In this document: in pieces, positions 3,406-57,033 of the stretch | Layout of the letters: every line of letters begins with the position of its first letter | Position numbering within the stretch: the first letter of the stretch is position 1 | NCBI GenBank assembly: GCA_965217585.1 | Contig: OZ244561.1 | Coordinates: forward strand, 3,872,001 to 3,936,000 | Source of the DNA: Candidatus Latescibacterota bacterium | GTDB lineage: Bacteria; Latescibacterota; UBA2968; UBA8231 | Direction: 5' to 3' | Length of the DNA stretch: 64,000 nucleotides | Notes under the pieces: generated by a model | Told to the model about the DNA's origin: nothing | Seen by the model: the letters and a program-made list of their open reading frames with translations, nothing else | Databases searched by the model: none | Program-made: the position numbers and the translations under genes

Positions 3406-4863
3406 ATGACCGTCTGGGAAGTACTCTGTTTGGTGGTGTATGGCATCATTATTGCCGTTCTCGGCATTTATGGCTTCCATCGCTACCAGCTACTGCGCCT
3501 GTTTTATCGGCATCACCCAACCCCGGTTCCCGAACCCGATCGCTTTCCCAAGCTGCCCTCCGTCACGATTCAGCTACCTCTCTACAACGAATATCACGTG
3601 GTCGAGCGCCTGCTAGAGGCCGTGGGCCAGATCGACTATCCCCGCGACCGCCTACAAATTCAGATTCTCGACGATTCGCAGGACGAGACCTGCGACAAGG
3701 CGCGGGAAGGAGCTGCGCGGCTGTCGGCCCAAGAGCTAGATGTCGAGTACCTAGGCCGGACTCAGCGCCACGGCTTTAAGGCCGGGGCTTTGGCCGCCGG
3801 GCTAGAGCGCACCCAAGGCGAATTCGTGTTGGTGCTCGACGCCGATTTCGTGCCCCCCCCCGACATCCTACAACGGGCTATTCACTACTTCACTGACGAT
3901 TCCATCGGCATGGTGCAGATGCGTTGGGGGCATCTCAATCGCTCCTACTCGCTCCTGACGCGCATCCAGTCGATCTTCCTCGACGGCCATTTCGTCGTCG
4001 AGCACACGGCCCGCAACCGCTCAGGCCGCTTCTTCAACTTCAACGGCACCGCGGGGATCTGGCGCAAAAAGGCCATCTACGACGCCGGCGGCTGGCAGCA
4101 CGACACGCTCACCGAAGATCTCGACTTGAGCTACCGCGCTCAGCTAGCGGGCTGGCAGTTTCTCTATCTACCCGAAATTGAAGTGCCCGGCGAGATACCT
4201 ATCGAGATCAACGCCTTCAAGTCGCAACAGCACCGCTGGACCAAGGGCGCGGTACAGACGGCGAAGAAAGTGCTGCCGCGGATCTGGCGCTCTGCGCTAC
4301 CAGCCAAGATCAAGGTCGAGGCCACCTTCCATCTGACGGCCAACCTCTGCTACATTATGATGCTCTTGATGGGCCTGTTGACCCTGCCGGTGCTCTCCAT
4401 TCGCTCGCAACTCGGCTGGGAGCGGCTCTTGATTATCGACCTGCCGCTGTTTTCTTTTGCCACCATGGCCATTTCCGGCTTCTACATTACCTCCCAGCGC
4501 GTGCTCTACCCGGATTGGCGGCGGCAGATCAAGTATTTGCCCCTGCTGATGGCCATTGGCATGAGCCTCTGCATCAACAACACCCGGGCGGTGATCGAGG
4601 GCCTCGTCGGGTACCAAACCGGCTTCCACCGGACCCCCAAATACGGGCTTACCGGACGCCGCGACCAAGGCCAGCAGCGCAAGTACCTAAGCCGCTGGTC
4701 TCTGCTGTCTGTGGGCGAACTGGGCATGGCGCTCTACTTCGTCGTCGCCCTCTACCACGCCTATGCGACCGGCCTCTACTTGGGGATGCCCTTCCTGCTG
4801 CTCTTCCACGCCGGCTTTCTCTACACCGGCTTGCTCTCCAGCGGCCAGCGCTGGTTGCACTAG
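3406..4863 (+). CDS. GT2 processive glycosyltransferase (cellulose synthase/CslA-like), membrane-bound
   Basis: QLPLYNE, ILDDS, KAGAL, DADF, TEDLDL and QQHRW (QxxRW) motifs plus TM helices; ATG 3406 preceded by GGGGAG. Confidence 0.92.
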
Positions 4864-4905
4864 TTCAAGACCCGCCAGCCCTCTCCGAGCATAGCGTCCT
4901 AACAC

Positions 4906-4944
4906 AAAAAGCCCCCAACCTCAAAGGGCCGGGGGCTGGGGGGC
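4906..4944 (-). terminator. Probable intrinsic terminator between convergent genes
   Basis: Imperfect GC-rich stem (gcccccaacc / ggctggggggc) next to an A5 run that reads as a U-tract on the minus strand. Confidence 0.5.
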
Positions 4945-4969
4945 TGCATTTGTTTGAACACCGTCTAGA

Positions 4970-5443
4970 TCACTCGGGCCACTCTAGCGGAAAATCCGGC
5001 AATCTATGACGCTCCCACAAGACGCTCATGCCGTTGTGATGTCGCTTGGTGAATTTCTCGATGTGGCGCACGCCGATGTCCACATTGCTCTTCTCGCGCT
5101 TCATCTCGCGCCCCTTGTCCCCCGACAGCTCGATGGACTGCGACACCTTTTCGACATAGAGGTTGTGGGTCAAGCGCAGTTCGCGATATGGGAGATCTTT
5201 GGGTAAGGTTTGCAACTGCGCCACATAGTCGTTGATGAGCTGACGCGCCTCGACTAAATTCCGTTCGGAAATCTCGCTGATCGGCTTTCTCAGGTGTTCA
5301 ATGGTCCTGACAATCCGCTCATTTTTGTCGTCCAGCTTTTTCAACTCCGTCACATAAGCGATAAGCAGTTGCTTATCTTCCTCCTCGGTCCCGCAACCGC
5401 CCAGGCCAACCGCCAGCATCAGTATAGCCAGTTTCTTCAACAT
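4970..5443 (-). CDS. Hypothetical helical lipoprotein
   Basis: Signal peptide with lipobox MLKKLAILMLAVGLGGC; GGAGG SD upstream. Confidence 0.75.
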   Translation of the reverse strand: MLKKLAILMLAVGLGGCGTEEEDKQLLIAYVTELKKLDDKNERIVRTIEHLRKPISEISERNLVEARQLINDYVAQLQTLPKDLPYRELRLTHNLYVEKVSQSIELSGDKGREMKREKSNVDIGVRHIEKFTKRHHNGMSVLWERHRLPDFPLEWPE

Positions 5444-5537
5444 ATGGACCTCCCTGTAGGGGTGAGATTGTCTGTTTCGTCGGCCTCAAAATACGCCGCA
5501 GAGAGGCGAAAATCAAGCACTCTCTACTTCGGACCTA

Positions 5538-5566
5538 TTGACGGGGCTTATGCGGCCTCATAATAT
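5538..5566 (+). promoter_or_regulatory. Sigma70-type promoter for purC
   Basis: TTGACG-17 bp-TAATAT. Confidence 0.55.
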
Positions 5567-5610
5567 CAATTTTTTCGCATCCTACGCTCTTACTTGAGGA
5601 CATCTATTCC

Positions 5611-6579
5611 ATGTTAACTCGCGAGCAGATCCAATCCCAGCTCGGCAACTGCCTGTTAGAGGCCAAATTCCCCCAGTGGGAGTCGCGCTATAAGCGCGGC
5701 AAGGTGCGCGATATGTACTTGCTTGAAAACCATCGCGTGCTGATCACTACGGATCGCCAGAGCGCGTTCGACCACGTGCTCGGCACCATTCCTCTCAAGG
5801 GCCAAGTGCTCAACCGCATCGCCCAGTACTGGTTTGAGCAGACCCAAGACATCGCCCCTAATCAAGTCATCTCAGTGCCCGACGCCAACGTCACCATCGC
5901 CCGCGAGCTGGACATCCTGCCCGTCGAGGTGGTGGTGCGCAAGTATCTGACGGGCAGTTCGGACACCGCCATCTGGACCCATTACAACAGAGGCGTGCGC
6001 CACTATTGCGGCCACACTTTGCCCGACGGCATGGTCAAAAACCAGCCCTTCGACGAGGCGATCATCACGCCGACGACCAAGGACGAAGTCCACGACGAGC
6101 TGATTTCGCGCGACGAAATCATCGCCCAAGGCTTGGTGCCAGAAGACACCTGGACCCAAGTCGAGGAGATCGCCCTCGCGCTCTTTGCTCGCGGCGAGGC
6201 GCTAGCGGCCAAGCGAGGGTTAATCCTCGTCGATACCAAATACGAGATGGGGCTGGACGCGGACGGGCGCATCACGCTCGCCGACGAGATCCACACGCCC
6301 GACTCGTCGCGCTTCTGGATCAGAGACACCTACGCGGAACGCCACGCTCGCGGCGCAGAGCCCGAAAGCCTCGACAAGGAATTTTTGCGCCTTTGGCTCC
6401 GCGACAAGGGCATTTCCGATGACAATATCCCCGCACTCGACGACGAGATCCGCATCCAAGTTGCCGAGCGCTATATCGATCTTTTCCAACGGGTTACAGG
6501 CACTGACTTCGCAGCCGAACTCGGCGAAATGCCGATCTTGCAGCGCATCGAGGAGCGGATTGCGGAGTACCTCAACTAA
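5611..6579 (+). CDS. purC: SAICAR synthase
   Basis: GKVRDMY, TDRQSAFD, PVEVVVR, TPTTK, LVDTKYEMG, DEIHTPDSSRFW, DKEFLR motifs. Confidence 0.98.
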   Translation: MLTREQIQSQLGNCLLEAKFPQWESRYKRGKVRDMYLLENHRVLITTDRQSAFDHVLGTIPLKGQVLNRIAQYWFEQTQDIAPNQVISVPDANVTIARELDILPVEVVVRKYLTGSSDTAIWTHYNRGVRHYCGHTLPDGMVKNQPFDEAIITPTTKDEVHDELISRDEIIAQGLVPEDTWTQVEEIALALFARGEALAAKRGLILVDTKYEMGLDADGRITLADEIHTPDSSRFWIRDTYAERHARGAEPESLDKEFLRLWLRDKGISDDNIPALDDEIRIQVAERYIDLFQRVTGTDFAAELGEMPILQRIEERIAEYLN

Positions 6580-6651
6580 GGTGCGGAATTTGCGCTGGTG
6601 ATCTGCTTAGGAGTTTCGCCTCTCTTCCGGGAATGAAGCGATTAGAGAACC

Positions 6652-6837
6652 ATGGTCAAAAACTTGCTCCGCGCCTTCTTGGTCTTCCGCCTAGAGTTTC
6701 ACCAGCCCACCCTCACTTTCGAGGACATGCTGAGCTATTGGCGACGCGCGCCCATCGTCCAGTACGTGGTTGAAAACGACGATGAGCAGCGCAGCAGTGC
6801 GCTTAAGCGCAGGCTCGACGAGGTCTATCCCTTCTAA
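6652..6837 (+). CDS. Small hypothetical protein (61 aa)
   Basis: ATG start; stop overlaps the next start (TAATG). Confidence 0.55.
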   Translation: MVKNLLRAFLVFRLEFHQPTLTFEDMLSYWRRAPIVQYVVENDDEQRSSALKRRLDEVYPF

Positions 6838-7115
6838 TGCTGCATCGCCAGCTCAGAAACGCCTTGGAGGAAATTTTCGGCGCATCCTTTGTCGCCGAGG
6901 CACTCGCCAACGCGCCCATTGCCCAGGTTGTCCTCTACGAGCGACGCGAGGATTTCAAAAAGGCCGTCCTCGGCTTCCAGCGGATCAATTTTCGCGACGA
7001 ACACACCGCTTATGCCACGGCCTTGGAGCGCGAGTTGGGCATCGCCCTGATTTGCGCCCTCCTCGACAACGACACGCGCGCGCTGGTTTCCGACCTCGGT
7101 CTCAACTATCTATGA
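6837..7115 (+). CDS. Small hypothetical protein (92 aa)
   Basis: Coupled at both ends (TAATG upstream, ATGA with rhaB); protein-like composition. Confidence 0.7.
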   Translation: MLHRQLRNALEEIFGASFVAEALANAPIAQVVLYERREDFKKAVLGFQRINFRDEHTAYATALERELGIALICALLDNDTRALVSDLGLNYL

Positions 7116-8581
7116 GCAAGCTCCTCGCCTTTGACCTAGGAGCCGAGAGTGGCCGCGCCATCGTCGGGCATTTCGACGGCGAGCGCCTAGCGCTAGAAGA
7201 GTTGCACCGCTTTGCGAACGGTCCGGTTCAAGTCTTCGATCGTCTCTACTGGGACCCTTTGCGCCTCTTCGCCGATATGAAACAGGGCCTCGGTCTGTTT
7301 GCCCGCGCACACGGCAAGGCACTCGATGCCATTGGCGTCGATACTTGGGGAGTTGATTTCGCCCTCCTCGGGCCTGGGGACGTGCTCTTGGACAATCCGC
7401 GCAACTACCGCGACCCGCGCACCGACGGCATGTTAGAGGAAGCCTTTGCACGGGTGCCGCGCGAGGAAATTTTCGCGCGCACCGGCGTGCAGTTTTTGAA
7501 GCTCAACACCTTGTATCAACTGCTTTCGCTGCGCGACTCGCCCTTGCTGGAATGGGCGCGGACCTTCCTGATGATGGCCGACCTTTTCAATTTTTATTTT
7601 ACGGGCACCAAGACCTGCGAATTTTCCAACGCCACTACCACCCAGTTCTACGATCCGCGCCAAGGCACTTGGTCGGTCGAACTCCTAGAAGGACTGGGGC
7701 TGCCGACCCACTTTCTTCCCCAGATCGTCCAGCCCGGAACCCGCATAGGCTCGCTCCTGCCTTCTATTGCTGCTGAAGTAGGGCTCAATTCGGTCCCGGT
7801 CATCGCTCCAGCTACTCACGATACGGGCGCGGCCGTGGCCGCCGTGCCCGCCGAAGTCCGCGACTACGCCTATATCAGCTCGGGAACTTGGTCGCTGATG
7901 GGCGTCGAGCTCGACCAACCGCTCATTAGCCACCAAGCATTCCAGTACAATTTCACCAACGAAGGGGGCGTCGGGCCGACCTACCGCTTCCTCAAAAATA
8001 TCATGGGGCTGTGGCTGATACAGGAGTGCCGGCGCGCTTGGCAGCGCGAAGGCCGCTCCTTTTCCTACGACGAGCTGGCGGCCATGGCCCAAAGCGCTGC
8101 ACCCTTTACCGCTTTCGTCGAGCCGGACGCCGAGTGCTTTCTCGCGCCGGGCGACATGCCCGCCAGAATCCGCGCCTATTGCCAAGAGACGGGCCAAGCC
8201 ATTCCAGCCGACGAGGGGCACGTCGCGCGCGTGGCCCTCGAAAGCCTAGCGTTTAAGTACCGCTACGTGCTCGACGCGTTAGAGACCATTCTCGGCCGCC
8301 GCCTCGAATGCATCCACATAGTCGGCGGCGGGATCCAAAACCGCCTGCTCTGCCAGTTTACCGCCTCGGCTACTGGTCGTCCGGTCGTCGCCGGGCCGCT
8401 TGAAGCTACGGCCATCGGCAATTTAATGCTCCAGCTCATGGGCCTAGGCCAGATGTCTTCGCTGGCCGAAATCCGCCAAGTCGTGCGCCACTCCTTCGCG
8501 CCCGTTGTGTACGAGCCGGAACAAGCCGCGGCTTGGGACGCGGCCTACGACCGCTTCCGCCCGCTGCTCCCCCCAGCCTGA
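7112..8581 (+). CDS. rhaB: Rhamnulokinase-family FGGY sugar kinase
   Basis: LAFDLGAESGR, IGVDTWGVDF, HDTGAAV, YISSGTWSL, TNEGG, LKNIMGLW, EATAIGN; start corrected to ATG 7112. Confidence 0.9.
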   Translation: MSKLLAFDLGAESGRAIVGHFDGERLALEELHRFANGPVQVFDRLYWDPLRLFADMKQGLGLFARAHGKALDAIGVDTWGVDFALLGPGDVLLDNPRNYRDPRTDGMLEEAFARVPREEIFARTGVQFLKLNTLYQLLSLRDSPLLEWARTFLMMADLFNFYFTGTKTCEFSNATTTQFYDPRQGTWSVELLEGLGLPTHFLPQIVQPGTRIGSLLPSIAAEVGLNSVPVIAPATHDTGAAVAAVPAEVRDYAYISSGTWSLMGVELDQPLISHQAFQYNFTNEGGVGPTYRFLKNIMGLWLIQECRRAWQREGRSFSYDELAAMAQSAAPFTAFVEPDAECFLAPGDMPARIRAYCQETGQAIPADEGHVARVALESLAFKYRYVLDALETILGRRLECIHIVGGGIQNRLLCQFTASATGRPVVAGPLEATAIGNLMLQLMGLGQMSSLAEIRQVVRHSFAPVVYEPEQAAAWDAAYDRFRPLLPPA

Positions 8582-8660
8582 TTTCGGGCTGGAACCGCGC
8601 TCTTCCTCGGTAGTCCTACTTAAGAACCTGTCGTTTCTCTTTTTATCGTTTGAGCTACTT

Positions 8661-9509
8661 ATGGGAAAAAGCAGCCTCGATTCGCGAGGTCTGACCGAGT
8701 CCTATTGGCGCGACATTCAGCACTTTCAACCGCTGAGCCGCCAACGAGAGATCGAGCTGGTGCATAGAGCGCGCGCTGGCGACGAGCGCGCCATGCACCA
8801 GATGGTCGAAGCCAACTTGCGCTTTGTCGTCCGCATCGCGAGGGGGTACCACGGGCGCGGGCTTTCCTTTATGGAGTTGATTTCCGAGGGCAACCTCGGG
8901 CTGCTGGAAGCGGTTCAGCGCTTTGACGAGACCCGCGGCTTTAAGTTCATCACCTATGCGGTATGGTGGATTCGCCAAGCCATCCTCCGGGCCTTAGCCG
9001 AACACGGCAAAATTGCTCGCCCGCCGCTGAGCCGGGTCAATGACCTGCAAAAGGTCGAGCGATGGACGGGTATCCTCGCCCAAAAACTGGGGCGCAATCC
9101 CACCCCCGAGGAAATCGCCAACAGCGCCGAATTATCGCTGGAGAGGACGCACAATGCCCTTCACATGGCCCAGCCCGATATCTCTATGGACGTGGCGATC
9201 GTGCCCGATGAAAGGGAGCCGCTGATGGCGACCTTCGCGGCTTGCACTCCCGATCCGGCCGATTGCTATGAGCGCGCCGCACTTTCCCATACCCTGCATG
9301 CGTGCCTCGACCTGCTCGACCGGCGCGAACGCCTAGTCGTCCGCGCCTATTTCGGCCTCGACGACCAAGAGCCCCAGACGCTGGAGCAAATCGGCGTGCA
9401 ATTGGGCCTCACGCGAGAGCGAGTGCGCCAGATCAGGGACGAAGCCCTCGATAAAATGCGAATTCACGCTGGTGATCTACTGCTCGAGCTTTGCAACAAT
9501 CCCGTGTAG
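8661..9509 (+). CDS. RpoD/SigA-family sigma-70 factor lacking region 1.1
   Basis: ANLRFVV, LISEGNLGL, FDETRGFKFITYAVWWIRQAI, TLEQIG..LGLTRERVRQI. Confidence 0.93.
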   Translation: MGKSSLDSRGLTESYWRDIQHFQPLSRQREIELVHRARAGDERAMHQMVEANLRFVVRIARGYHGRGLSFMELISEGNLGLLEAVQRFDETRGFKFITYAVWWIRQAILRALAEHGKIARPPLSRVNDLQKVERWTGILAQKLGRNPTPEEIANSAELSLERTHNALHMAQPDISMDVAIVPDEREPLMATFAACTPDPADCYERAALSHTLHACLDLLDRRERLVVRAYFGLDDQEPQTLEQIGVQLGLTRERVRQIRDEALDKMRIHAGDLLLELCNNPV

Positions 9510-49760: not shown

Positions 49761-50290
49761 TTAGAAGGTTGTATTGGTCATAAGGTAAGCAAAGGTCATA
49801 TCCCCGTTCCAGTCCTCAATCGAATCCTTGTAACGAGTAACGCTGGTCATGCTGTCGTCGGCTATCACTCGCGAAAGTCCGGCGACTACGGCAAAGCCGG
49901 GACGGTATTTGTAGGTAAGCGTCAAATCGACTTCCTCGCCCAAATGGCTCGATTCCAAGTCCCCCTTTTGCGCTGTGAGGAAAGAGTGCCCGTGGATTCC
50001 AAGGGATGCCTGGTCACTCAACGGCAACGCCGCCTTGAAGGCCAAGTCCTGCAGCCCCAGCCCTCCAGTGTGGACCAGGATATTGAGAAACGGTAGGAGA
50101 ACGCCATCTTTTTGCCCGCTAGACGCACGCCCATAGTGACCTGATCGGTGTCCTTGGCTCCGTCCTTGTTGTAGAGCGCGTAGAGGTCCAAGCTGCCGGA
50201 CGGCAGTTGGTCTAAGGTCGCGTACGCACCCGTCAAATAGGCGTCGTCGGAAAACTGCGTCGAATCCGCCTCGGTCACTTGAATCGCCGG
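49761..50290 (-). pseudogene. Fragment of an alginate-export-family outer-membrane beta-barrel
   Basis: Two frames joined near 50090: DAYLTGAYA..LDLYALY..TMGVRL..YRF then FLNI..GLQDL..LGEEVDLTLTYKY..FAYLMTNTTF; no signal peptide or N-terminus. Confidence 0.65.
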
Positions 50291-50427
50291 CGGAATAGAT
50301 TGCAAGACGCACGGCGTTCCCCCAACGTAAAGGTGGCATAGATACGGATAAGTTAAACCGCGAATCTCGATCAAGCTACTTGCTTTTTATGGGTGGTTGC
50401 GTCTAGATAATGCAGCGCACCCAGCGC

Positions 50428-50745
50428 TTAGCGCAGCAGCCGTTCGCTAAACAGCGTCCGCGCTAGAGCGCGCACGTCCCGCTCACCAGCCAAATGGGTC
50501 TGCCCCACCGACACCAGCACCACCTCGACCTCCCCAAGCCCTACCCGATAGACGATGCGGAACCAGCCGCCCGGCGGACGCAGGCAGCGATAATCCCTTA
50601 ACTCGCCGACCAAGGGCCAGCCCTGTTCCTCGGGGTCAATTGCCAGCCCGGTGATGTATTGGTCCACTTGCTCGGCGATCCGCCGGTTGAGCAAACCTTG
50701 CCGCGACTCTAAGGCGCGCTGCGCCAAGACGACGCGAAACATCAT
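50428..50745 (-). CDS. RelE/ParE-family type II toxin
   Basis: FRVVLAQRA, LAIDPEEQGWPLVGELRDYRCLR..FRIVYRV..VLVSVG; ATGA overlap with antitoxin. Confidence 0.85.
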   Translation of the reverse strand: MMFRVVLAQRALESRQGLLNRRIAEQVDQYITGLAIDPEEQGWPLVGELRDYRCLRPPGGWFRIVYRVGLGEVEVVLVSVGQTHLAGERDVRALARTLFSERLLR

Positions 50746-50999
50746 TGCGCCTCCCAAACAGCGCGCTCGCCCGCCTCAATCTGGCGGATGCCTTCGCGCA
50801 GCGCGGCACATTGGGCCTCGTCGCCGAGCACCTCTAAGGTTTCGACAATGCCCTGGTAAAGCGACCACGGCATCAGCGCGAGTATCGGCTGGCCGCGGCG
50901 CGTTACAGCGAGGGCACTCGCTTCGGGTTCGGCGGCGAAGCGATCAGGCAATTGATTCAGGACTTTGCGGGCTTCGGCGATGGGCATGGATTGGAGCAT
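50742..50999 (-). CDS. Phd/YefM-family antitoxin
   Basis: MPIAEARKVL, AVTRRGQPILALM, ETLEVLGD..LREGIRQIEAG; GAGG SD. Confidence 0.9.
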   Translation of the reverse strand: MLQSMPIAEARKVLNQLPDRFAAEPEASALAVTRRGQPILALMPWSLYQGIVETLEVLGDEAQCAALREGIRQIEAGERAVWEAQ

Positions 51000-52207: not shown

Positions 52208-52458
52208 GTCTTTGCTGGCCGTGACCCAACTCGCCTTTGGGTTAGCCAAAATTGGTCGGTAAAAGGGAACAACGCCAAGACAATATCGCCGAAACTAAAT
52301 TATCCCAGACTCGACTAACGCTGGCCTTAGCAGTAGAAAAATCTGAGCGGGAGAGCGTCTCTCCCATCTTCCCAGCGGCACCATCGGACCGCGTGGGTTT
52401 TAGCTGCTAAGTGCGCTTGAATTCCAACTTTACTTGGACCCCGTCTCGCCGTGGGGCA

Positions 52459-53358
52459 TCAGCGAGCATCAACAGGCTTTGCGCCGCCTTCGGAATTGCC
52501 CTGCTCCAAGACCTGCGAGCTGACAAGCTCGATAATCTGCGGCAGTGTCATAGCGCCAATACGTCGGGCCTCGCGCAACAAGAGTAGCGCGGCGACGGTC
52601 GCATCCGCGCTCGCCGCAACCCGTTGCAAGTTCTCCCGGATGGTTCGAGGCAGGGTATCCCCAATGGCTTCCAGAAGATCGGACTCGATTCGTTGTTCAA
52701 GGACGCGCTCTCGTTCGTTTTCGTCGGCTTCGGACAGGACTCTGCGCCATTCCTCGAGATGCTTTGAGCGGATTTCCAGCAGGTCAAGCCCTGGATTGCC
52801 CAACCGAGCGGCACACTCCTCAACTATCGGATCGAACCGATGAGCTTCCCAGACTAGATCAATGCGCCCCCTGAGGTCGGCGACGAGCCTTGGGCCATCC
52901 TCCGGGTCGTCGAGTAGGTCGCAGGCTTCAATTGCGCCATTGAGTGCCTCTTGAAGTCTGCCGGCAAGATAGATGCAGCAATCGCAGTAGTGAGCGGCAC
53001 TGTCTGGCGAGCCTCGCCCGCACGCCTCCTTGAACCAACGATGAACAAAGGCATACGTTTTCTGATCCCGTTTCTTGCTAATGTCTAAGTTGTGAGCCAC
53101 GTAGGTTCGCAAAGTGGACATTTCGTTGCGGAGTGAACTATTGGCCTTTAGCGGCGGCAACTTCGTGAGAAACGCGAGCGTGATCTTTGCCGCTTCGTTG
53201 ACAAGCGCATATCCCCAGATGACTAAGCGATAGAATGCCAGTTCGTCGCTAAAATCGGATGGCAACGGCAGCGAGATTTCGGCACAACCGTTTGGCGAGT
53301 GGATGGAGACGCGAGTGCGGAGTGTTTGGTACAGGTTGCTGAGTTCAATCGGAGTCAT
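52459..53358 (-). CDS. Hypothetical protein with HEPN-like RxxxxH motif, putative defence effector
   Basis: Helical 299-aa ORF; LRTYVAHN (53092-53109); ATGA overlap with the upstream NTPase gene. Confidence 0.7.
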   Translation of the reverse strand: MTPIELSNLYQTLRTRVSIHSPNGCAEISLPLPSDFSDELAFYRLVIWGYALVNEAAKITLAFLTKLPPLKANSSLRNEMSTLRTYVAHNLDISKKRDQKTYAFVHRWFKEACGRGSPDSAAHYCDCCIYLAGRLQEALNGAIEACDLLDDPEDGPRLVADLRGRIDLVWEAHRFDPIVEECAARLGNPGLDLLEIRSKHLEEWRRVLSEADENERERVLEQRIESDLLEAIGDTLPRTIRENLQRVAASADATVAALLLLREARRIGAMTLPQIIELVSSQVLEQGNSEGGAKPVDAR

Positions 53359-56300
53359 CGTCTCCGCCCCAAGCGTGAGAGCGGATCGGCAATGGGGCCA
53401 ATGTAGTTAAATGCAATGCCAAAGTTTCGCAGTTCGCGACCATGGGCGAAATCGTCGTTTGGGAAATCGCGCGCTAGCACCCTGATTGGCCTTTCGATAC
53501 CCTCTACTCGAATCCAGTCAGTTTCACCCCTTTTCTCGACGCGTCCCCGGAATTGACGCGTGGAACCGCTCTCATCCTTCGCCACGAGCCACCGTACCAC
53601 CCGTGATCGATCCTCATATTCGGTGTCGTGTGACAGCGACCGCCAGAGTTCGATGGCACGGTTCGTGTCTTTGAGTAGCCAGCACAGCACCGCTTCAAGG
53701 AACCGTTCCCGGTTGCGTGCGTCATCACCGGCCTGCTCATTGAGGGCACTCACGATCGCACGAAGCTCCAAAATTTGGCCGGTGTCCACAGGTGTGCGGC
53801 CATGCTGATTGAACATCAGGCGATCTCCTGTCGCTTGCGTCCAGCGCAATCTGAGCAAAAGCCGTTGGCAGCGGTCGTCCAGTGCTATTCCTGTATTGAC
53901 CCGATTAGATATGTAGTCCGCCGCTTCCGCTGCGATTCTGCGAGTCTTGTCGTCGAAGGGCGGCTCGCTCATATAGACATGCTCCGCTCGACGCTTTGCG
54001 ATAAGGAAGGTTGCTGCCGCAGGAGCGACGCTTTCCAACTTGGCAAGCGTCTCGTCACTCAGCTTCGCATCGCCCATAACGTATGCGGCGCGGCTTCGAC
54101 TCTCAAGATATCTCGTTTTTTGATCTATGGAGACCAAATCTTCGTCCAGATCACTGTCTTTGTGCAAATAGCTCGACGTCTCGGTACTCTGTTCCTTCAC
54201 CCTAAAAATATCATCTGCAACGTCGACAGTTGCGTATAGGTCGGCTAATAGTTCCGCACATTGCACATCTGACAGTTCGTCCTTTTTTGAGTTGAGAACA
54301 TCGCGTCCCGTCCATAGGGCGATATCAATTGGGTAGTAGTCTCTGCCAAGCCCAATGGCTTTCTCACTTGCCACCCTGGCGGCGAGATAATCTGACCAAA
54401 AGGCTTCTCCTGTGCCGACCCGCGCGCGCTCGACGGCAAGATATCCGTATATCGCCGCACGTTCCGCAACAAGGCTTTGTTTTGTCTTTCTGGATACTGG
54501 AATTTTCTCGTCGTCAATTTGATGTAGTGTTTTTTCGACCGTATCGCGAGCCTCATCCAGGATTGCAAATCTTTCGTCGTCGGTCCTATTTGTATCACAA
54601 TCACTTTGCAACTGGAAGACTGCCCGTCGACGAAACACACACTCGCGCAAAACGAGGTCTGGGTCGGACATTCTATTGTGCTCCCGTAACTCTTTTAGTG
54701 TGTCGGCAAACCGCAGATAACCAGAGCGGTACGCCTCTTTACGCGGCCCGTTCCGATCAATTTTGAACAGCAGGTCAAGCAGGAACGAACGTTCGGCGCT
54801 TTTATCTACTCCAGGTCTGACACAGCTAATAAGATCGAGGAGTCGCTCGATTTCCTGACCTGGAGTAAGCCTTCCTCTGCATATGAGCTCTGCCTCAAGC
54901 TGTATGCGTGGCGAAATCAGGAAATCCGATCCTTCTTCATCCTCTCGCCAGCGGAACAGATCAAGATCGGCAAGGAGATAGGTGATTTGATCCAAATGCA
55001 GTCCACCTGTCTGGCCAAGCACTCGAAAAAGAAGATTAACGGGCACTGCACAATTCAGTCGGCCGGCCACCATGACGTAGTCAATTAGCCGGCCCGACTC
55101 ATCCAAGCCCAAAGCCGCGAGTTTTTCATCCTCCTCGAATATCTGCGAGGAGGGACTGGCAATGCCTAAATCAATTAACTGCTCCGCTAGGGGAGAGATC
55201 CCAGTAGATGGTTGCGGTACATCCCGTGCCCGATCCCGCACCACACCTTCGGTAGCTCTCGCTTCCGATGACACGCCTGTGGCAAGGCGCTCGCGTGAGG
55301 CAGGCAAACTGCGGTACAGCATGGCGAAGATCGAGTCAGTATTAGGCAGGCTATAGTGTAGCTGGAGACGGAATTCGTTCTGTAGCTCCTTGAACGCAGA
55401 CAACTCTGCCGGCGAAACGTGGTCAGGGGCCTCGACGAACCGATCCGACTTGCGAGCAGTACGGCTCTCCATTCGATAGCAAGTGCCGACTATGAGCAAG
55501 TGCCGACCCCGACTTCGCAACGCGGAGGCTACATCGTCGTAGCGGGGCGGGGCCTGGCTGGAGTCACAGATTAAGACTGTTGCCATCGCCCCCAAACGCT
55601 CAGACTCTAGACAGAACGCTTCGATGTCTGCATGATTTGGTATTCGGTTTGTTGCAACGACAACAGGCAAACGCAATTCACGACGTATCTTTCGAGTTAA
55701 CCGTGCAAGTGCAATGCTTTTTCCGGTGCCCGACTGCCCATGTAGGATAACCACATCGTCGGAGTCGGCTTGCCCAAGCCGTTTTAGTTTGTTTTTTACC
55801 GTCTTCCAAAGGGTCTGCTCGAATTCGCGTTCCACTGCAAATCCGCGTGCCACACCCTCTATCAGCAATCTGAAGTTACCAAGCGTACCGTGGAATCGGC
55901 GGAATGCATCGTCTAATTCGGATTCGCCTAATGACTCGGGATCTTCTGTCCATCCATCGTCAACAATAGCCGCAGACGCCTCCACTCGCAGACGCAGGGC
56001 CGGAGTGATGTCCAGTGCCCTTTCCCCGGAGATCGACACCATGCCCGGCTCGTCCGGGGCAGCGGACCCTGAAACATCAAGCACACCGCGGAGTTCAAGT
56101 TGGCTTATTGCGCTTGCAAGGGTCGTTGTGGTTTCAATGAGTGCGCCTTGCTCAATCATCTCGTCGGCGAAGATCGAGTCCGGCTTGCCCGAGGAGCCAA
56201 ACCATAAAACCTTGGGGCCGAATTGGCCGGATAGAGGTGCCAATAGCGAGTCTATCGGCATCCAATCCTTGCTTGAATCGTAGCCTGCTATGACCACCAA

Positions 56301-56849
56301 GCCGCGCACTGTCGCGGTTTCCGCGATGCGGTTTAGCAATTCCGTCGCGTGCCCGCTGAGGCGGCGCTGCAGATCGCTTTGCTTTCTAGGTGCTCGTGCC
56401 TCCTCGACGGTTTCATTGGACTTTCCAAGGAGATAGTGAATCGGCGGTCTTGATCGGCTACGCGGCACTCTCGCATAGGTATCTCTGGAAAGCACCGACT
56501 CGGGCTGTCGCCCTCTGGTCTCGAAACGCCGCGCAAACTGGGGATCTATGGACGAGGTGAACACCGCACTCCAAGCGACATCAAAGATGAGAGCAACGGC
56601 ATCAGAGGGCACACTTCGTTCAAACCGCTCGGAAAGCCAATCCATGTCGACCGCACTCATGCCCTGCTTGAGCGCGGCGCACCATCCCGAATTGCAATCT
56701 GTGCATCCAGAGCGATCGAGGAGAGCACCAAGTATGGCATCATGGGCCGAGTCGAGACTCTGGCCTGCTAATAGCACCAGCGGCCGCTTCTCCTTATTCT
56801 GAAGTGCGTCGCTAAGTATTTCAATAGGATCAGTCGATGAGCTTAGCAT
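53355..56849 (-). CDS. STAND-like P-loop NTPase with degenerate SIR2-like N-terminus, helical/TPR region and OB-fold-like C-terminus
   Basis: LVLLAGQ, WSAVFTSSID, IHYLLG, LVVIAGYD..D (SIR2-like layout); Walker A LHGQSGTGKS; Walker B VLICD; C-terminal FRGRVEK..FGIAFNYIGPIA. Confidence 0.75.
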   Translation of the reverse strand: MLSSSTDPIEILSDALQNKEKRPLVLLAGQSLDSAHDAILGALLDRSGCTDCNSGWCAALKQGMSAVDMDWLSERFERSVPSDAVALIFDVAWSAVFTSSIDPQFARRFETRGRQPESVLSRDTYARVPRSRSRPPIHYLLGKSNETVEEARAPRKQSDLQRRLSGHATELLNRIAETATVRGLVVIAGYDSSKDWMPIDSLLAPLSGQFGPKVLWFGSSGKPDSIFADEMIEQGALIETTTTLASAISQLELRGVLDVSGSAAPDEPGMVSISGERALDITPALRLRVEASAAIVDDGWTEDPESLGESELDDAFRRFHGTLGNFRLLIEGVARGFAVEREFEQTLWKTVKNKLKRLGQADSDDVVILHGQSGTGKSIALARLTRKIRRELRLPVVVATNRIPNHADIEAFCLESERLGAMATVLICDSSQAPPRYDDVASALRSRGRHLLIVGTCYRMESRTARKSDRFVEAPDHVSPAELSAFKELQNEFRLQLHYSLPNTDSIFAMLYRSLPASRERLATGVSSEARATEGVVRDRARDVPQPSTGISPLAEQLIDLGIASPSSQIFEEDEKLAALGLDESGRLIDYVMVAGRLNCAVPVNLLFRVLGQTGGLHLDQITYLLADLDLFRWREDEEGSDFLISPRIQLEAELICRGRLTPGQEIERLLDLISCVRPGVDKSAERSFLLDLLFKIDRNGPRKEAYRSGYLRFADTLKELREHNRMSDPDLVLRECVFRRRAVFQLQSDCDTNRTDDERFAILDEARDTVEKTLHQIDDEKIPVSRKTKQSLVAERAAIYGYLAVERARVGTGEAFWSDYLAARVASEKAIGLGRDYYPIDIALWTGRDVLNSKKDELSDVQCAELLADLYATVDVADDIFRVKEQSTETSSYLHKDSDLDEDLVSIDQKTRYLESRSRAAYVMGDAKLSDETLAKLESVAPAAATFLIAKRRAEHVYMSEPPFDDKTRRIAAEAADYISNRVNTGIALDDRCQRLLLRLRWTQATGDRLMFNQHGRTPVDTGQILELRAIVSALNEQAGDDARNRERFLEAVLCWLLKDTNRAIELWRSLSHDTEYEDRSRVVRWLVAKDESGSTRQFRGRVEKRGETDWIRVEGIERPIRVLARDFPNDDFAHGRELRNFGIAFNYIGPIADPLSRLGRRR

Positions 56850-56965
56850 GGTCTATTATCATTCATTACGTAGTGGGTCTTGACGATGCGGAAAAACCGC
56901 ATCAGGCGAATACCCCATGCGCTCGAATATGGGGAAAATCTACCCTGCTCTTGTTAATAAGGTAC

Positions 56966-56995
56966 ACTCTGCGAAAACTCTGCGAAAACTCCGCG
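56966..56995 (+). repeat. 11-bp tandem direct repeat
   Basis: ACTCTGCGAAA x2 plus partial ACTCCGCG. Confidence 0.7.
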
Positions 56996-57033
56996 CTATC
57001 CGCGTTTTGCCGCAATTCCTATCTTAATTTTCT

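What the first reader, a model, noticed from the sequence alone, without database searches (positions are those of the whole stretch)
52459..56849. Candidate undescribed two-gene anti-phage system: degenerate-SIR2 STAND sensor plus HEPN-like partner
Seen: two minus-strand genes coupled by an ATGA overlap, visibly lower in GC and with different codon usage than the flanks, next to a TA pair and a pseudogene. The 1164-aa protein has an N-terminal SIR2-like motif order, but TSSID and YLLG sit where active SIR2 NADases have TTNxD and LHG. It then has Walker A GQSGTGKS, Walker B VLICD, a long helical region and a short beta-rich C-terminus resembling an OB/cold-shock fold. The 299-aa partner is helical and carries RTYVAH (RxxxxH). 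Known: Avs/NLR-like STAND ATPases sense phage components and activate effectors, and HEPN RNases use RxxxxH. Inference: the fused SIR2 has lost catalysis and become an adaptor, with the effector role moved to a separate HEPN-like RNase; the OB tail may sense nucleic acid. I do not recognise this pairing among named systems.
Basis: partly seen in the sequence, partly recalled or inferred. Interest (0 to 1): 0.85.

Follow-up and report, generated by a model that had tools for sequence, protein, structure and literature searches.

The report
Paired bacterial immune-sensor and effector genes
A strictly conserved pair of bacterial genes, a large NLR-like switch protein with a disabled SIR2 domain and a small helical partner carrying an RNase-like motif, looks like an undescribed antiviral system laid out like a split version of the human antiviral protein SAMD9.

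Summary
The two overlapping minus-strand genes are real: gene A (53355-56849, 1164 aa) and gene B (52459-53358, 299 aa). They are under purifying selection and compositionally foreign (GC3 0.56/0.63 versus 0.70-0.78 in neighbours). They are always found together: gene B follows gene A in 22 of 22 loci found through B, in all 12 genomes found through A, and in three divergent pairs (A 28-37%, B 22-29% identity). The pair is a presence/absence insert at one chromosomal junction within a genus. Gene A is a STAND NTPase of Pfam clade nSTAND5. Its N-terminal domain aligns to true SIR2_2 proteins (hhalign probability 88%), but the catalytic Asn and His are replaced in 83 of 84 relatives. Gene B is all-helical. 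Its invariant Rx4H sits at the HEPN-defining position, but no profile or fold search confirms HEPN. The OB-like tail could not be tested. PADLOC has no match and the papers searched describe no such pair. The closest analogues are Avs5, SAMD9/Avs9 and HEPN-STAND-OB fusions. Best reading: a two-gene Avs-like defence system with a structural SIR2 domain and a trans effector. It is a new variant of a known kind. Structure and complex prediction for gene A were unavailable.

The parts
53355..56849 (-). Gene A: 1164-aa STAND NTPase (Pfam clade nSTAND5), the predicted sensor and switch
   Evidence: ORF. 387 relatives at 90% clustering and 562 clusters at 50%. 41 of 42 relatives match PF25199. omega 0.15-0.17.
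56265..56837 (-). Gene A aa 5-195: SIR2-like domain without the catalytic Asn and His. Motifs LAGQ (aa 27-30), FTSSID (97-102), YLLG (139-142), AGY..D (188-195)
   Evidence: hhalign against 18 true SIR2_2 sequences: probability 88.3, E 2.9e-6, 174 columns, all four motifs in register; controls. Residue counts. ThsA 8wc0_A at E 0.03.
55854..56264 (-). Gene A aa 196-332: conserved linker between the SIR2-like domain and the NTPase, fold unknown. It occupies the same position as the delta domain of SAMD9.
   Evidence: Conserved residues P265, D266, E290, D297, W300, F316, F319. The position analogy comes from PMC13600222 and was not tested.
55449..55853 (-). Gene A aa 333-467: P-loop NTPase core. 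Walker A is aa 371-378 (nt 55716-55739) and Walker B is aa 425-429 (nt 55563-55577).
   Evidence: Pfam nSTAND_NTPase5 at aa 333-467, E 5.2e-6, 26.8 bits, below the 34-bit cut-off. G371, G376 and D429 in 84 of 84; K377 in 82 of 84. mS29/DAP3 is the best PDB sequence hit, E 1.6e-5.
53595..55448 (-). Gene A aa 468-1085: long middle region, the presumed helical sensor arm. Its most variable patch is aa 881-920 (nt 54090-54209).
   Evidence: Conservation profile: 0.44 in close relatives and 0.19 in diverse relatives for aa 881-920, against means of 0.69 and 0.41. The fold was not determined.
53358..53594 (-). Gene A aa 1086-1164: strongly conserved C-terminal tail (F-x-I-A-F-N-[FY]-x-G-P-I-A-D-P). 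The OB-like fold is only conjectured.
   Evidence: F1147 in 84 of 84, G1151 in 82 of 84, N1148 in 77 of 84. The cold-shock comparison was not significant.
52459..53358 (-). Gene B: 299-aa all-helical partner, the predicted effector
   Evidence: ORF. 170-182 relatives, none with a Pfam domain in the rows listed. AlphaFold2 pLDDT 85.7. omega 0.12-0.16.
53020..53358 (-). Gene B aa 1-113: four-helix unit with HEPN-like topology. E55 is nt 53194-53196. The Rx4H-N motif, aa 84-90, is nt 53089-53109.
   Evidence: Helices 3-18, 39-65, 75-87 and 96-113. R84, H89, N90 and E55 are invariant in alignments A5, A7 and A8. Motif position as defined for HEPN in PMC3710099. Weak Pfam HEPN_Swt1 hit at aa 72-110.
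52498..52896 (-). Gene B aa 155-287: second helical half, with F175, D176, D192, R197, W204 and E225 invariant. It may bind RNA or gene A.
53355..53358 (-). ATGA overlap: the stop codon of gene A overlaps the start codon of gene B, which implies translational coupling
   Evidence: Coordinates.
56850..57033 (.). 184-bp upstream boundary of the insert, presumably holding the promoter. It contains a hairpin at 56885-56903.
   Evidence: Sequence. The empty-site comparison places the insert boundary here. No promoter consensus was found in this stretch.
52208..52458 (.). Downstream boundary of the insert, between the end of PhyH and the stop codon of gene B
   Evidence: Empty-site comparison. No flanking direct or inverted repeats were found.

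Best explanation
The two genes form a two-component, Avs/NLR-like anti-phage module.

Gene A is the sensor and switch. It has a STAND (nSTAND5) ATPase, whose canonical Walker A and B motifs suggest it can bind nucleotide. A long C-terminal arm with a conserved terminal domain would recognise an infection cue. An N-terminal SIR2-like domain has lost the NADase catalytic residues. By analogy with the non-catalytic SIR2-like domain of SAMD9, this domain would act structurally, holding the protein shut and then mediating activation contacts.

Gene B is translationally coupled to A and never found without it. It supplies the effector in trans, most likely as a metal-independent RNase that uses the invariant R84/H89 pair (with N90 and E55) on a HEPN-like four-helix unit. 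On activation of A, it would be released or assembled to cleave RNA and stop the infected cell.

Shown: the gene pair, its conservation, its mobility, STAND membership, SIR2 homology with loss of the catalytic residues, and the Rx4H motif with its position in the model. Inferred: the defence role, physical contact between A and B, RNase activity and the trigger.
For: Pairing: gene B is directly downstream of gene A on the same strand in 22 of 22 loci found with the B profile, spanning Latescibacterota, Gemmatimonadota, Acidobacteriota, Binatia, Spirochaetia, and Gamma- and Alphaproteobacteria. The same holds in all 12 genomes found with the A profile in the window's phylum (one copy decayed) and in a second divergent pair in genome G172.

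Accessory and mobile behaviour: 12 of 168 genomes in the phylum carry the pair, 5 of the 30 other genomes in the genus, and 1 of 401 genomes in the phylum of L021. In 5 of 5 same-genus genomes lacking the pair, PhyH abuts DUF1611 within about 10-25 bp, with identical flanks. GC3 is foreign, and gene A's dS is about 1.4-3 times that of the flanking genes.

Functionality: omega is 0.12-0.17.

STAND: 41 of 42 relatives match PF25199, and the Walker motifs are invariant.

Dead SIR2. In Avs5 the N110A change at the equivalent Asn abolishes NADase activity (PMC12931631).

Precedent: the SAMD9 SIR2-like domain is judged unlikely to bind NAD, yet it is needed for autoinhibition and for the SIR2/SIR2 and OB/SIR2 activation contacts (PMC13600222).

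Effector modularity: relative P0282 (44% identical to A) carries an N-terminal extension of about 360 aa that matches a DUF4238 HMM (E 8.1e-7). DUF4238 alone protects against T7 (PMC9122126).

Gene B: R84, H89, N90 and E55 are invariant down to 22% identity. [quoted passage not shown] HEPN-STAND-cold-shock-OB fusions are on record (PMC3710099).

Defence neighbours in independent contexts: QatA (L014), a type III R-M module (L013), a PifA-like KAP NTPase (L016), plus PtuA, TRIP13, PDC-M01A/B and mad genes among 106 flanking ORFs.

Against: Gene A could not be folded, so the sensor arm and the OB tail are uncharacterised. The OB test was negative or inconclusive.

Many flanking genes are housekeeping, 6 of the 10 large neighbours had no PADLOC hit, and in the window itself the neighbours are metabolic genes. 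The pair was not found on plasmids, phages or viral contigs. There is no experimental or expression evidence. The strongly conserved polar residues of the SIR2-like domain (Q30, D102, R114, R130, D195) could mean that it still binds a ligand.
Confidence: 0.5

Rival explanations
1. It is a defence module, but gene B is not a nuclease. It could be a regulatory or adaptor subunit: a co-sensor, an inhibitor that keeps gene A off, or a bridge to a host target. The lethal or protective output would then come from gene A oligomerisation or from an unrecognised activity in its conserved linker or C-terminal domain.
Against: An invariant R-x4-H-N plus a helix-2 Glu, kept at 22% identity, is typical of a catalytic site rather than an interface. 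Gene A has no recognisable effector domain of its own, whereas one relative has a fused DUF4238 where effectors normally sit.
Confidence: 0.2
2. The SIR2-like domain of gene A is not dead but repurposed. It would bind or process a nucleotide such as NAD or ADP-ribose, or a signalling molecule, using a different set of residues, and would be the real effector or signal generator. Gene B would then be its downstream target or a modulator.
For: The domain has its own near-invariant polar set (Q30, D102, R114, R130, D195). Avs5 shows that the HG motif can vary (NG) and still work (PMC12931631).
Against: The Asn whose mutation kills Avs5 is Ala or Ser in 73 of 84 relatives and Asn in 1 of 84. The His position is hydrophobic or aromatic (F, Y or L) in 81 of 84. 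The GAGxS dinucleotide loop is replaced by G-Q. The SAMD9 SIR2-like domain, in a similar position in its protein, is judged unlikely to bind NAD.
Confidence: 0.12
3. The module is not an immune system. It could be a STAND-type signal-transduction or regulatory pair, with gene B as a sigma-like or other regulatory protein, or a selfish addiction module that persists by post-segregational toxicity.
For: Many bacterial STAND proteins are regulators, as discussed in PMC5445408. Gene B shows weak sigma region 2-like structural matches. The window's own neighbours are metabolic genes. The pair is absent from phage and plasmid collections.
Against: The distribution is patchy and crosses phyla. The pair is a precise presence/absence insert, has foreign composition, and includes decayed copies (L017, L020, G145). 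Defence genes sit beside it in several independent contexts. No DNA-binding domain was detected.
Confidence: 0.1

Closest known systems
Avs5 (AVAST type 5; SIR2-STAND; PMC12931631)
   Same: An N-terminal SIR2-family domain is followed by a STAND ATPase and a long C-terminal sensor arm. It is an anti-phage system that depends on its Walker A and B motifs.
   Different: Avs5 is a single gene with an active SIR2 NADase (the N110A mutant is dead), and its NTPase is Pfam nSTAND3. Here the Asn and His are replaced, the NTPase is nSTAND5 in 41 of 42 relatives against nSTAND3 in 3 of 42, a second gene is obligatory, and no PADLOC model matches the window's two proteins. An HMM of the gene A family found nothing in 20 true SIR2_2 long ORFs from sister genomes.
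SAMD9/SAMD9L and bacterial 'Avs9' (PMC5445408, PMC12680541, PMC13600222)
   Same: A variant SIR2-like domain sits directly before a STAND NTPase, followed by a long arm and a small C-terminal domain. The effector is a separate module that cuts RNA (tRNA-Phe). A conserved His lies just before the P-loop (H370 here, in 63 of 84).
   Different: SAMD9 and Avs9 fuse an AlbA_2 nuclease at the N-terminus, whereas gene A starts directly with the SIR2-like domain and the candidate effector is a separate gene of a different fold. The SAMD9 family has a GG[TS] Walker A, whereas gene A has GK[TS]. No sequence-level link to SAMD9 was detected or testable here, and the OB and TPR parts were not verified.
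HEPN-STAND-(cold-shock OB) fusion proteins noted by Anantharaman et al. 2013 (PMC3710099)
   Same: They combine a HEPN-type effector, a STAND NTPase and sometimes a C-terminal OB domain.
   Different: Those are single polypeptides with HEPN at the N-terminus and no SIR2-like domain. Here the HEPN-like protein is encoded downstream as a separate gene, and its HEPN identity is unproven.
Pfam PF25199 nSTAND_NTPase5
   Same: The NTPase core of gene A and of 41 of 42 relatives matches this model (best E 3.3e-13). The public collection pre-assigns PF25199 to the window's own protein.
   Different: The Pfam entry covers only the 145-residue NTPase core. No paper in the searched library uses the name nSTAND5 for a STAND clade. 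It says nothing about the SIR2-like domain or the partner gene.
DUF4238 single-gene defence (Rousset et al. 2022, PMC9122126)
   Same: One gene A relative (P0282) has a DUF4238-like N-terminal domain in front of the SIR2-like domain, so the family can carry a validated defence domain at the effector position.
   Different: The window's gene A has no such domain, and gene B is unrelated to it.

Membership tests
STAND NTPase, Pfam nSTAND_NTPase5 (PF25199) | Match to the family profile | tested here: met
   41 of 42 diverse relatives match, best E 3.3e-13. The window protein itself scores 26.8 bits, E 5.2e-6, below the 34-bit cut-off, but the collection's precomputed Pfam assigns PF25199.2 to it (P0003).
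STAND NTPase, Pfam nSTAND_NTPase5 (PF25199) | Walker A GxxxxGK[ST] and Walker B hhhhD | tested here: met
   G371 and G376 in 84 of 84, K377 in 82 of 84, D429 in 84 of 84. The residue after D429 is G, A, C or S, with no second acidic residue.
STAND NTPase, Pfam nSTAND_NTPase5 (PF25199) | Helical, winged-helix and sensor domains after the NTPase | not testable with these tools
Only weak helical-bundle sequence hits were seen at profile positions 720-850.
SIR2 superfamily (SIR2_2, PF13289) | Homology of the domain core (Rossmann-like, four motif blocks) | tested here: met
   hhalign probability 88.3%, E 2.9e-6, 174 columns, motifs in register. The best of 20 shuffles scored 28.0 (6.8%), the reversed profile gave 0.3%, and other regions of gene A gave at most 5.3%. 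The Pfam HMM itself matches only 1 of 42 members, at E 0.001.
SIR2 superfamily (SIR2_2, PF13289) | Catalytic Asn of TTNxD | tested here: not met
   The position is Ala in 41, Ser in 32 and Asn in 1 of 84. It is S100 in the window protein.
SIR2 superfamily (SIR2_2, PF13289) | Catalytic His of the HG motif (or the NG variant of Avs5) | tested here: not met
   The position is Phe in 65, Tyr in 13, Leu in 3 and His in 1 of 84. It is L141 in the window protein.
SIR2 superfamily (SIR2_2, PF13289) | GAGxS dinucleotide-binding loop | tested here: not met
   It is replaced by G29-Q30 (83 and 81 of 84).
Avs5 | Single-gene SIR2-nSTAND3 protein with an active NADase | tested here: not met
   nSTAND3 is matched weakly by 3 of 42 relatives, against 41 of 42 for nSTAND5. 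The catalytic residues are absent. A partner gene is obligatory. PADLOC gives 0 hits for P0001.
SAMD9 / Avs9 | N-terminal AlbA_2 nuclease effector | tested here: not met
   The SIR2-like alignment starts at residue 5-9 of gene A. No AlbA_2 hit appeared in Pfam scans of 42 members.
SAMD9 / Avs9 | Deviant Walker A GG[TS] (SAMD9 family proper) | tested here: not met
   Gene A has GK[TS], with K in 82 of 84. The feature is as stated in PMC5445408.
SAMD9 / Avs9 | Variant, non-catalytic SIR2-like domain directly upstream of the NTPase | tested here: met
   Compare PMC13600222.
SAMD9 / Avs9 | C-terminal OB (cold-shock-like) fold | tested here: inconclusive
   hhalign against 19 cold-shock sequences scored 15.6 (probability 1.6%), and 30 shuffles reached 17.3. 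The reference profile had low diversity, and no structure was available.
HEPN superfamily | Conserved Rx4-6H motif | tested here: met
   R84-x4-H89 is invariant in 52 sequences and in three relatives at 22-29% identity.
HEPN superfamily | [quoted passage not shown] | tested here: met
   Model helices are 3-18, 39-65, 75-87 and 96-113. R84 is in the last turn of helix 3, H89 is in the loop, and E55 in helix 2 is invariant. The definition comes from PMC3710099.
HEPN superfamily | Polar N/D/H after the Arg, and an Ex3[KR] motif | tested here: inconclusive
   The residue after R84 is Thr (Asn in P0225). The acidic motif is E55-A-[AG]-[KR], that is Ex2[KR].
HEPN superfamily | Significant profile or fold match to a known HEPN family | tested here: inconclusive
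   Pfam HEPN_Swt1 E 0.14 for the window protein; 5 of 45 members match, best 0.066. hhalign against Swt1-HEPN scored 13.0, within the shuffle range, though the motifs were in register. The lists from Foldseek, VIA wide and VIA re-rank contain no HEPN chain. Only the Swt1 family was used as a profile reference.
Catalogued defence systems (PADLOC-DB v2.0.0) | Match of either protein to any system model | tested here: not met
   0 families for P0001 and for P0002 at E <= 1. Among 42 gene A relatives only scattered matches appeared (mad8 in 9 of 42, best E 5.6e-5; AbiO in 2; Nhi in 1), which I take to be P-loop level. Newer catalogues could not be queried.

The most novel reading that the evidence does not exclude
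The pair is a naturally 'split SAMD9-like' immune machine. A dead SIR2 domain would serve as the docking and activation platform through which a STAND switch controls a separately encoded RNase. That RNase would belong to a previously unrecognised family, either a very divergent HEPN or a new fold that has converged on the Rx4H-plus-Glu chemistry. It may aim at tRNA, as hinted by the tRNA-nucleotidyltransferase-like C-terminal motif in distant gene B relatives. If so, it would be a simple bacterial system for dissecting what the enigmatic SIR2-like domain of SAMD9 and SAMD9L does.
Probability: 0.3. Interest if true: 0.8.

Novelty: new variant of a known kind. Interest (0 to 1): 0.6.

Why it matters
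STAND/NLR-like receptors are a central theme of immunity from bacteria to humans. Nearly all characterised bacterial Avs proteins carry their effector fused at the N-terminus. Here a whole clade (562 clusters at 50% identity) keeps a SIR2 domain whose catalytic residues are gone. In every case examined it is tied to a small, unannotated partner with an invariant RNase-like motif. If validated, this would add a two-gene architecture to the Avs repertoire and a new effector family. It would also provide a bacterial model for the non-catalytic SIR2-like domain that controls human SAMD9/SAMD9L, whose gain-of-function mutations cause disease. The clean insert and empty-site polymorphism also gives natural isogenic-like comparisons.

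Tried and rejected

Complex prediction (gene A aa 1-330 plus aa 1000-1164, with gene B) was not available, so binding remains untested.

ESM Atlas: not usable for P0002 or for the stored homologue P0145.

Profile searches of gene B: PDB sequences gave nothing below E 0.38 and PHROGs nothing below 0.078. The Pfam tally was led by TetR_C_6 (7 of 45 members, best 4.1e-4), which I took as helical noise.

OB test with a cold-shock profile: not significant.

HEPN test with a Swt1-type profile: not significant.

Metagenome scan with the diverse gene A alignment failed for lack of a conserved stretch and was not repeated. The wide gene A family (562 clusters) was therefore checked for a gene B partner only in 3 distant pairs.

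Plasmids, phages and IMG/VR: no matches.

Terminal repeats or transposon ends around the insert: none convincing. Promoter and terminator scans were at background.

I considered and rejected the idea that gene A is simply an Avs5, that the TA pair belongs to the island (it is core to the genus), and that gene A evolves under positive selection overall (omega about 0.15).

Supplementary tables were not readable. Those of PMC12803255 (589 STAND clades) and PMC12680541 (238 structural hits) may already list this clade.

Literature searches for a description of the pairing: 'nSTAND5'; nSTAND/SIR2/HEPN; SAMD9/STAND/SIR2/OB-fold/bacterial; the nSTAND1-6 names; STAND/HEPN/two-gene/anti-phage. None of the listed titles or abstracts describes it. 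Only listings were seen for most of these papers.

Full report
WHAT IS THERE

The window holds two minus-strand ORFs exactly as described. Gene A runs 53355..56849 (1164 aa, P0001) and gene B runs 52459..53358 (299 aa, P0002). They share an ATGA stop/start overlap at 53355-53358.

The module is compositionally distinct. Its GC is 0.549, against 0.595 for the left 10 kb and 0.632 for the right flank. GC3 is 0.558 for A and 0.627 for B, against 0.70-0.78 for nine neighbouring genes.

Both genes are under purifying selection. Against four same-genus alleles, omega is 0.15-0.17 for A and 0.12-0.16 for B, similar to the flanking genes at 0.08-0.22. They are therefore real, functional genes.

The public annotation of the window's own protein starts at M69 (1096 aa, P0003). 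Relatives are about 1160 aa and conserve residues upstream of M69 (P23, G29, Q30), so the long form is correct.

AN OBLIGATE, MOBILE PAIR

A profile of gene B found 22 loci in reference genomes of Latescibacterota, Gemmatimonadota, Acidobacteriota, Binatia, Spirochaetia, Gammaproteobacteria and Alphaproteobacteria. In 22 of 22, a gene A homologue lies immediately upstream on the same strand. This includes two loci where A is only 28-29% and B only 25-27% identical (L021, L022).

Searching from the gene A side, 12 of 168 genomes of the window's phylum carry it. All 12 have gene B downstream, and one copy (G145) is frameshifted.

Genome G172 carries a second, divergent pair, with A at 37% and B at 29% identity (L102).

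The distribution is patchy: 5 of the 30 other genomes in the genus, and 1 of 401 sampled genomes in the phylum of L021, that one being the query genome itself.

Within the genus the pair always sits between the DUF1611 gene and the PhyH gene. In 5 of 5 same-genus genomes that lack it, PhyH abuts DUF1611 within about 10-25 bp, while the flanks, including the Phd-type TA pair, stay syntenic at 87-97% identity. The module is thus a discrete insert of about 4.6 kb. I found no terminal repeats.

Gene A alleles have dS of 0.46-0.78, against 0.18-0.44 for the flanking genes. The alleles are therefore older than the surrounding chromosome, as expected for an exchanged accessory gene. Copies in L017, L020 and G145 look decayed.

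The pair was not found in PLSDB plasmids, INPHARED phages or IMG/VR contigs.

GENE A

The family is large: 562 clusters at 50% identity, 265 of them at E <= 1e-30. It keeps its full length of about 1120-1190 aa down to 22-25% identity.

41 of 42 diverse members match Pfam nSTAND_NTPase5 (best E 3.3e-13). Weaker matches go to AAA_16 (22), AAA_22 (17), NACHT (8) and nSTAND3 (3). The window protein scores 26.8 bits, below the 34-bit cut-off.

Walker A (G371-x4-G376-K377-[ST]) and Walker B (hhhh-D429) are essentially invariant. D429 is followed by G, A, C or S rather than a second acidic residue.

For the N-terminal 195 residues, I built a reference alignment of 18 true SIR2_2 domains from sister genomes. 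These carry the canonical GAGxS, TTNxD and xHG motifs. hhalign against columns 1-330 of the 84-sequence gene A alignment gave probability 88.3%, E 2.9e-6 and 174 aligned columns. All four blocks are in register: LGQ with GAG, VFTS[AS]ID with TTNxD, YLFG with LHG, and IEGY..D with VGYS..D.

The controls were clean. Twenty column shuffles reached at most score 28.0 (6.8%). The reversed profile gave 0.3%. Other regions of gene A gave at most 5.3%. A ThsA structure (8wc0_A) also appears at E 0.03 over profile positions 9-147.

In that register, the catalytic Asn position is Ala in 41, Ser in 32 and Asn in 1 of 84. The catalytic His position is Phe in 65, Tyr in 13, Leu in 3 and His in 1 of 84. The GAG loop is G-Q. 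In Avs5 the N110A change at the equivalent Asn abolishes NADase activity (PMC12931631, passages seen).

The domain is nevertheless strongly conserved, with its own polar set (Q30, D102, R114, R130, D195). It is therefore maintained for another purpose.

The most variable patch is aa 881-920, and the last 25 residues are among the most conserved. A test of the proposed cold-shock/OB likeness was not significant.

GENE B

The family is compact, at 170-182 clusters at 90% identity, and the listed rows carry no Pfam annotation.

AlphaFold2 with a 45-sequence alignment gave a confident all-helical model (pLDDT 85.7). Its helices are at 3-18, 39-56/58-65, 75-87, 96-113 and 121-149, followed by a second helical half.

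R84, H89, N90 and E55, with W48, W108, F109, F175, D176, D192, R197, W204 and E225, are invariant across 52 sequences and across the three divergent relatives.

[quoted passage not shown] Gene B fits the first feature, and fits the helix-2 acid as E55-A-[AG]-[KR]. Thr follows the Arg.

The C-terminal 40 residues of the divergent gene B proteins weakly match tRNA_NucTran2_2 (E 0.0046 and 0.0095, below cut-off). This is a lead, not a finding.

CONTEXT

I scanned 106 flanking ORFs (at least 95 aa, up to five per side) from 14 contexts: the window, two loci from a second syntenic group, and eleven unique neighbourhoods.

PADLOC gave strong matches to QatA (L014, four genes upstream, E 1.5e-231). 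It also matched a type III methyltransferase, with an adjacent weakly REase_III-like ORF, directly downstream in L013. There was a PifA-like KAP NTPase in L016. PtuA, TRIP13, PDC-M01A/B, mad3/6/8 and PD-T4-6 also matched, in loci I did not map.

The remaining neighbours are ordinary metabolic and transport genes, and 6 of the 10 large neighbours had no PADLOC hit. This is suggestive of a defence association, but it is not a formal enrichment test.

COMPARISON WITH WHAT IS KNOWN

Avs5 is a single-gene SIR2-nSTAND3 NADase (PMC12931631). The gene A family differs in NTPase clade, in its catalytic residues and in needing a partner. An HMM of the gene A family found nothing in the true SIR2_2 long ORFs of sister genomes.

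The SAMD9 family core was described as AlbA_2, variant Sir2, STAND, TPR, then cold-shock-like OB (PMC5445408, passages). Bacterial 'Avs9' has the same layout, with an AlbA_2 nuclease that is needed for killing (PMC12680541, passages).

Cryo-EM of SAMD9 shows that its SIR2-like domain lacks the NAD lid. It stabilises the closed state and makes the SIR2/SIR2 and OB/SIR2 contacts required for activation (PMC13600222, outline and sections 6, 11 and 13).

Gene A shares the 'variant SIR2 directly before the NTPase' arrangement and the His before the P-loop. It lacks AlbA_2 and has GK[TS] rather than the family's GG[TS]. It is an architectural analogue, not a demonstrated member.

One relative, P0282, has an N-terminal extension of about 360 aa in front of the SIR2-like domain. 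That extension matches an HMM built from six DUF4238-family sequences taken from sister genomes, two of them poorly trimmed (E 8.1e-7, residues 2-120). None of the four control proteins matched. DUF4238 alone protects E. coli against T7 (PMC9122126, passage).

This shows that, in this clade too, the position ahead of the dead SIR2 is where an effector goes. It makes it plausible that gene B is the same function supplied in trans. HEPN-STAND-OB fusions were noted in 2013.

The 2026 survey of 589 STAND clades and Avs7-21 describes fused N-terminal effectors (PMC12803255, passages). Its supplementary tables, which I could not open, may include this clade.

No PADLOC model matches the window's two proteins. 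No paper found by five searches describes the pairing.

VERDICT

The most likely reading (about 0.5) is a two-gene Avs-like defence module. A STAND switch with a structural, non-catalytic SIR2-like domain controls a separately encoded effector that is probably a HEPN-like RNase.

It is a new variant of a known kind rather than a categorically new system. The least certain points are what gene B does, how it is coupled to gene A, and what gene A senses.

Noticed in passing
window 50428-50999 (-): A Phd/YefM-family antitoxin (50742-50999, Pfam E 3.2e-9) overlaps a 109-aa partner ORF (50428-50757) that has no Pfam hit. The pair is present at 86-98% identity in all ten same-genus loci examined, with or without the A-B insert. 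It belongs to the genus backbone, not to the island.
   Followed up: partly
L003, L007, L020 (downstream of gene B): In three of the same-genus loci that carry the pair, the PhyH gene that normally flanks the insert is missing. The junction has therefore suffered further deletions.
   Followed up: no
window 49761-50339 (-): This 192-aa ORF matches relatives only in two separate pieces (109 aa plus 69-75 aa) and is absent from some genomes.
   Followed up: no
L102 (G172:C1:3253000-3266000), genes at 4783-8202 and 8207-9085: The Spirochaetia genome that holds L014 carries a second, divergent A-B pair (A 37% and B 29% identical to the window's). The first search of that genome reported one in-frame TAG in this gene A match.
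   Followed up: partly
protein P0282 (935 aa, from the representative search): This gene A relative has a fused N-terminal DUF4238-like domain of about 360 aa ahead of the SIR2-like domain. It is cut short at the C-terminus, and its genomic context could not be fetched.
   Followed up: partly
L021:9890-10816, L022:5591-6589, L102:8207-9082: Divergent gene B proteins end in a 'P-x-T/D-G-K/R-D-V/I-I ... A/T-P-G-x-x-V-G-x-x-L' stretch. In the two that were scanned it weakly matches the C-terminal domain of tRNA nucleotidyltransferases (E 0.0046 and 0.0095). The window's clade has a degenerate version.
   Followed up: partly
sister genomes; own genome G000:C1:4084512-4084919 and 5737439-5737897 (outside the window): True SIR2_2 domains are frequent in this lineage (28 of 41 genomes), many in open frames of 1100-1320 aa. 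The window's own genome has two, one in a 1233-aa frame. These are probably Avs5-like or other SIR2-STAND proteins.
   Followed up: no
own genome G000:C1:886408-886749 (outside the window) and 45 other genomes of the phylum: Swt1-type HEPN domains occur in 46 of 168 genomes, mostly at the start of open frames of about 1110-1135 aa. These are probably the HEPN plus AAA+ (Ava_2192/DUF499-type) proteins described in the 2013 HEPN census.
   Followed up: no
window 56885-56903: A perfect 7-bp stem with a TTTTT loop (GATGCGG TTTTT CCGCATC on the minus strand) lies 36-54 bp upstream of the gene A start codon, in the AT-richer intergenic region. It may be a regulatory site.
   Followed up: no
L013:11020-17359: In the Binatia locus a type III R-M-like module lies directly downstream of gene B. 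It comprises a 1001-aa methyltransferase (PADLOC E 0) and a 1027-aa ORF with a weak REase_III match.
   Followed up: partly
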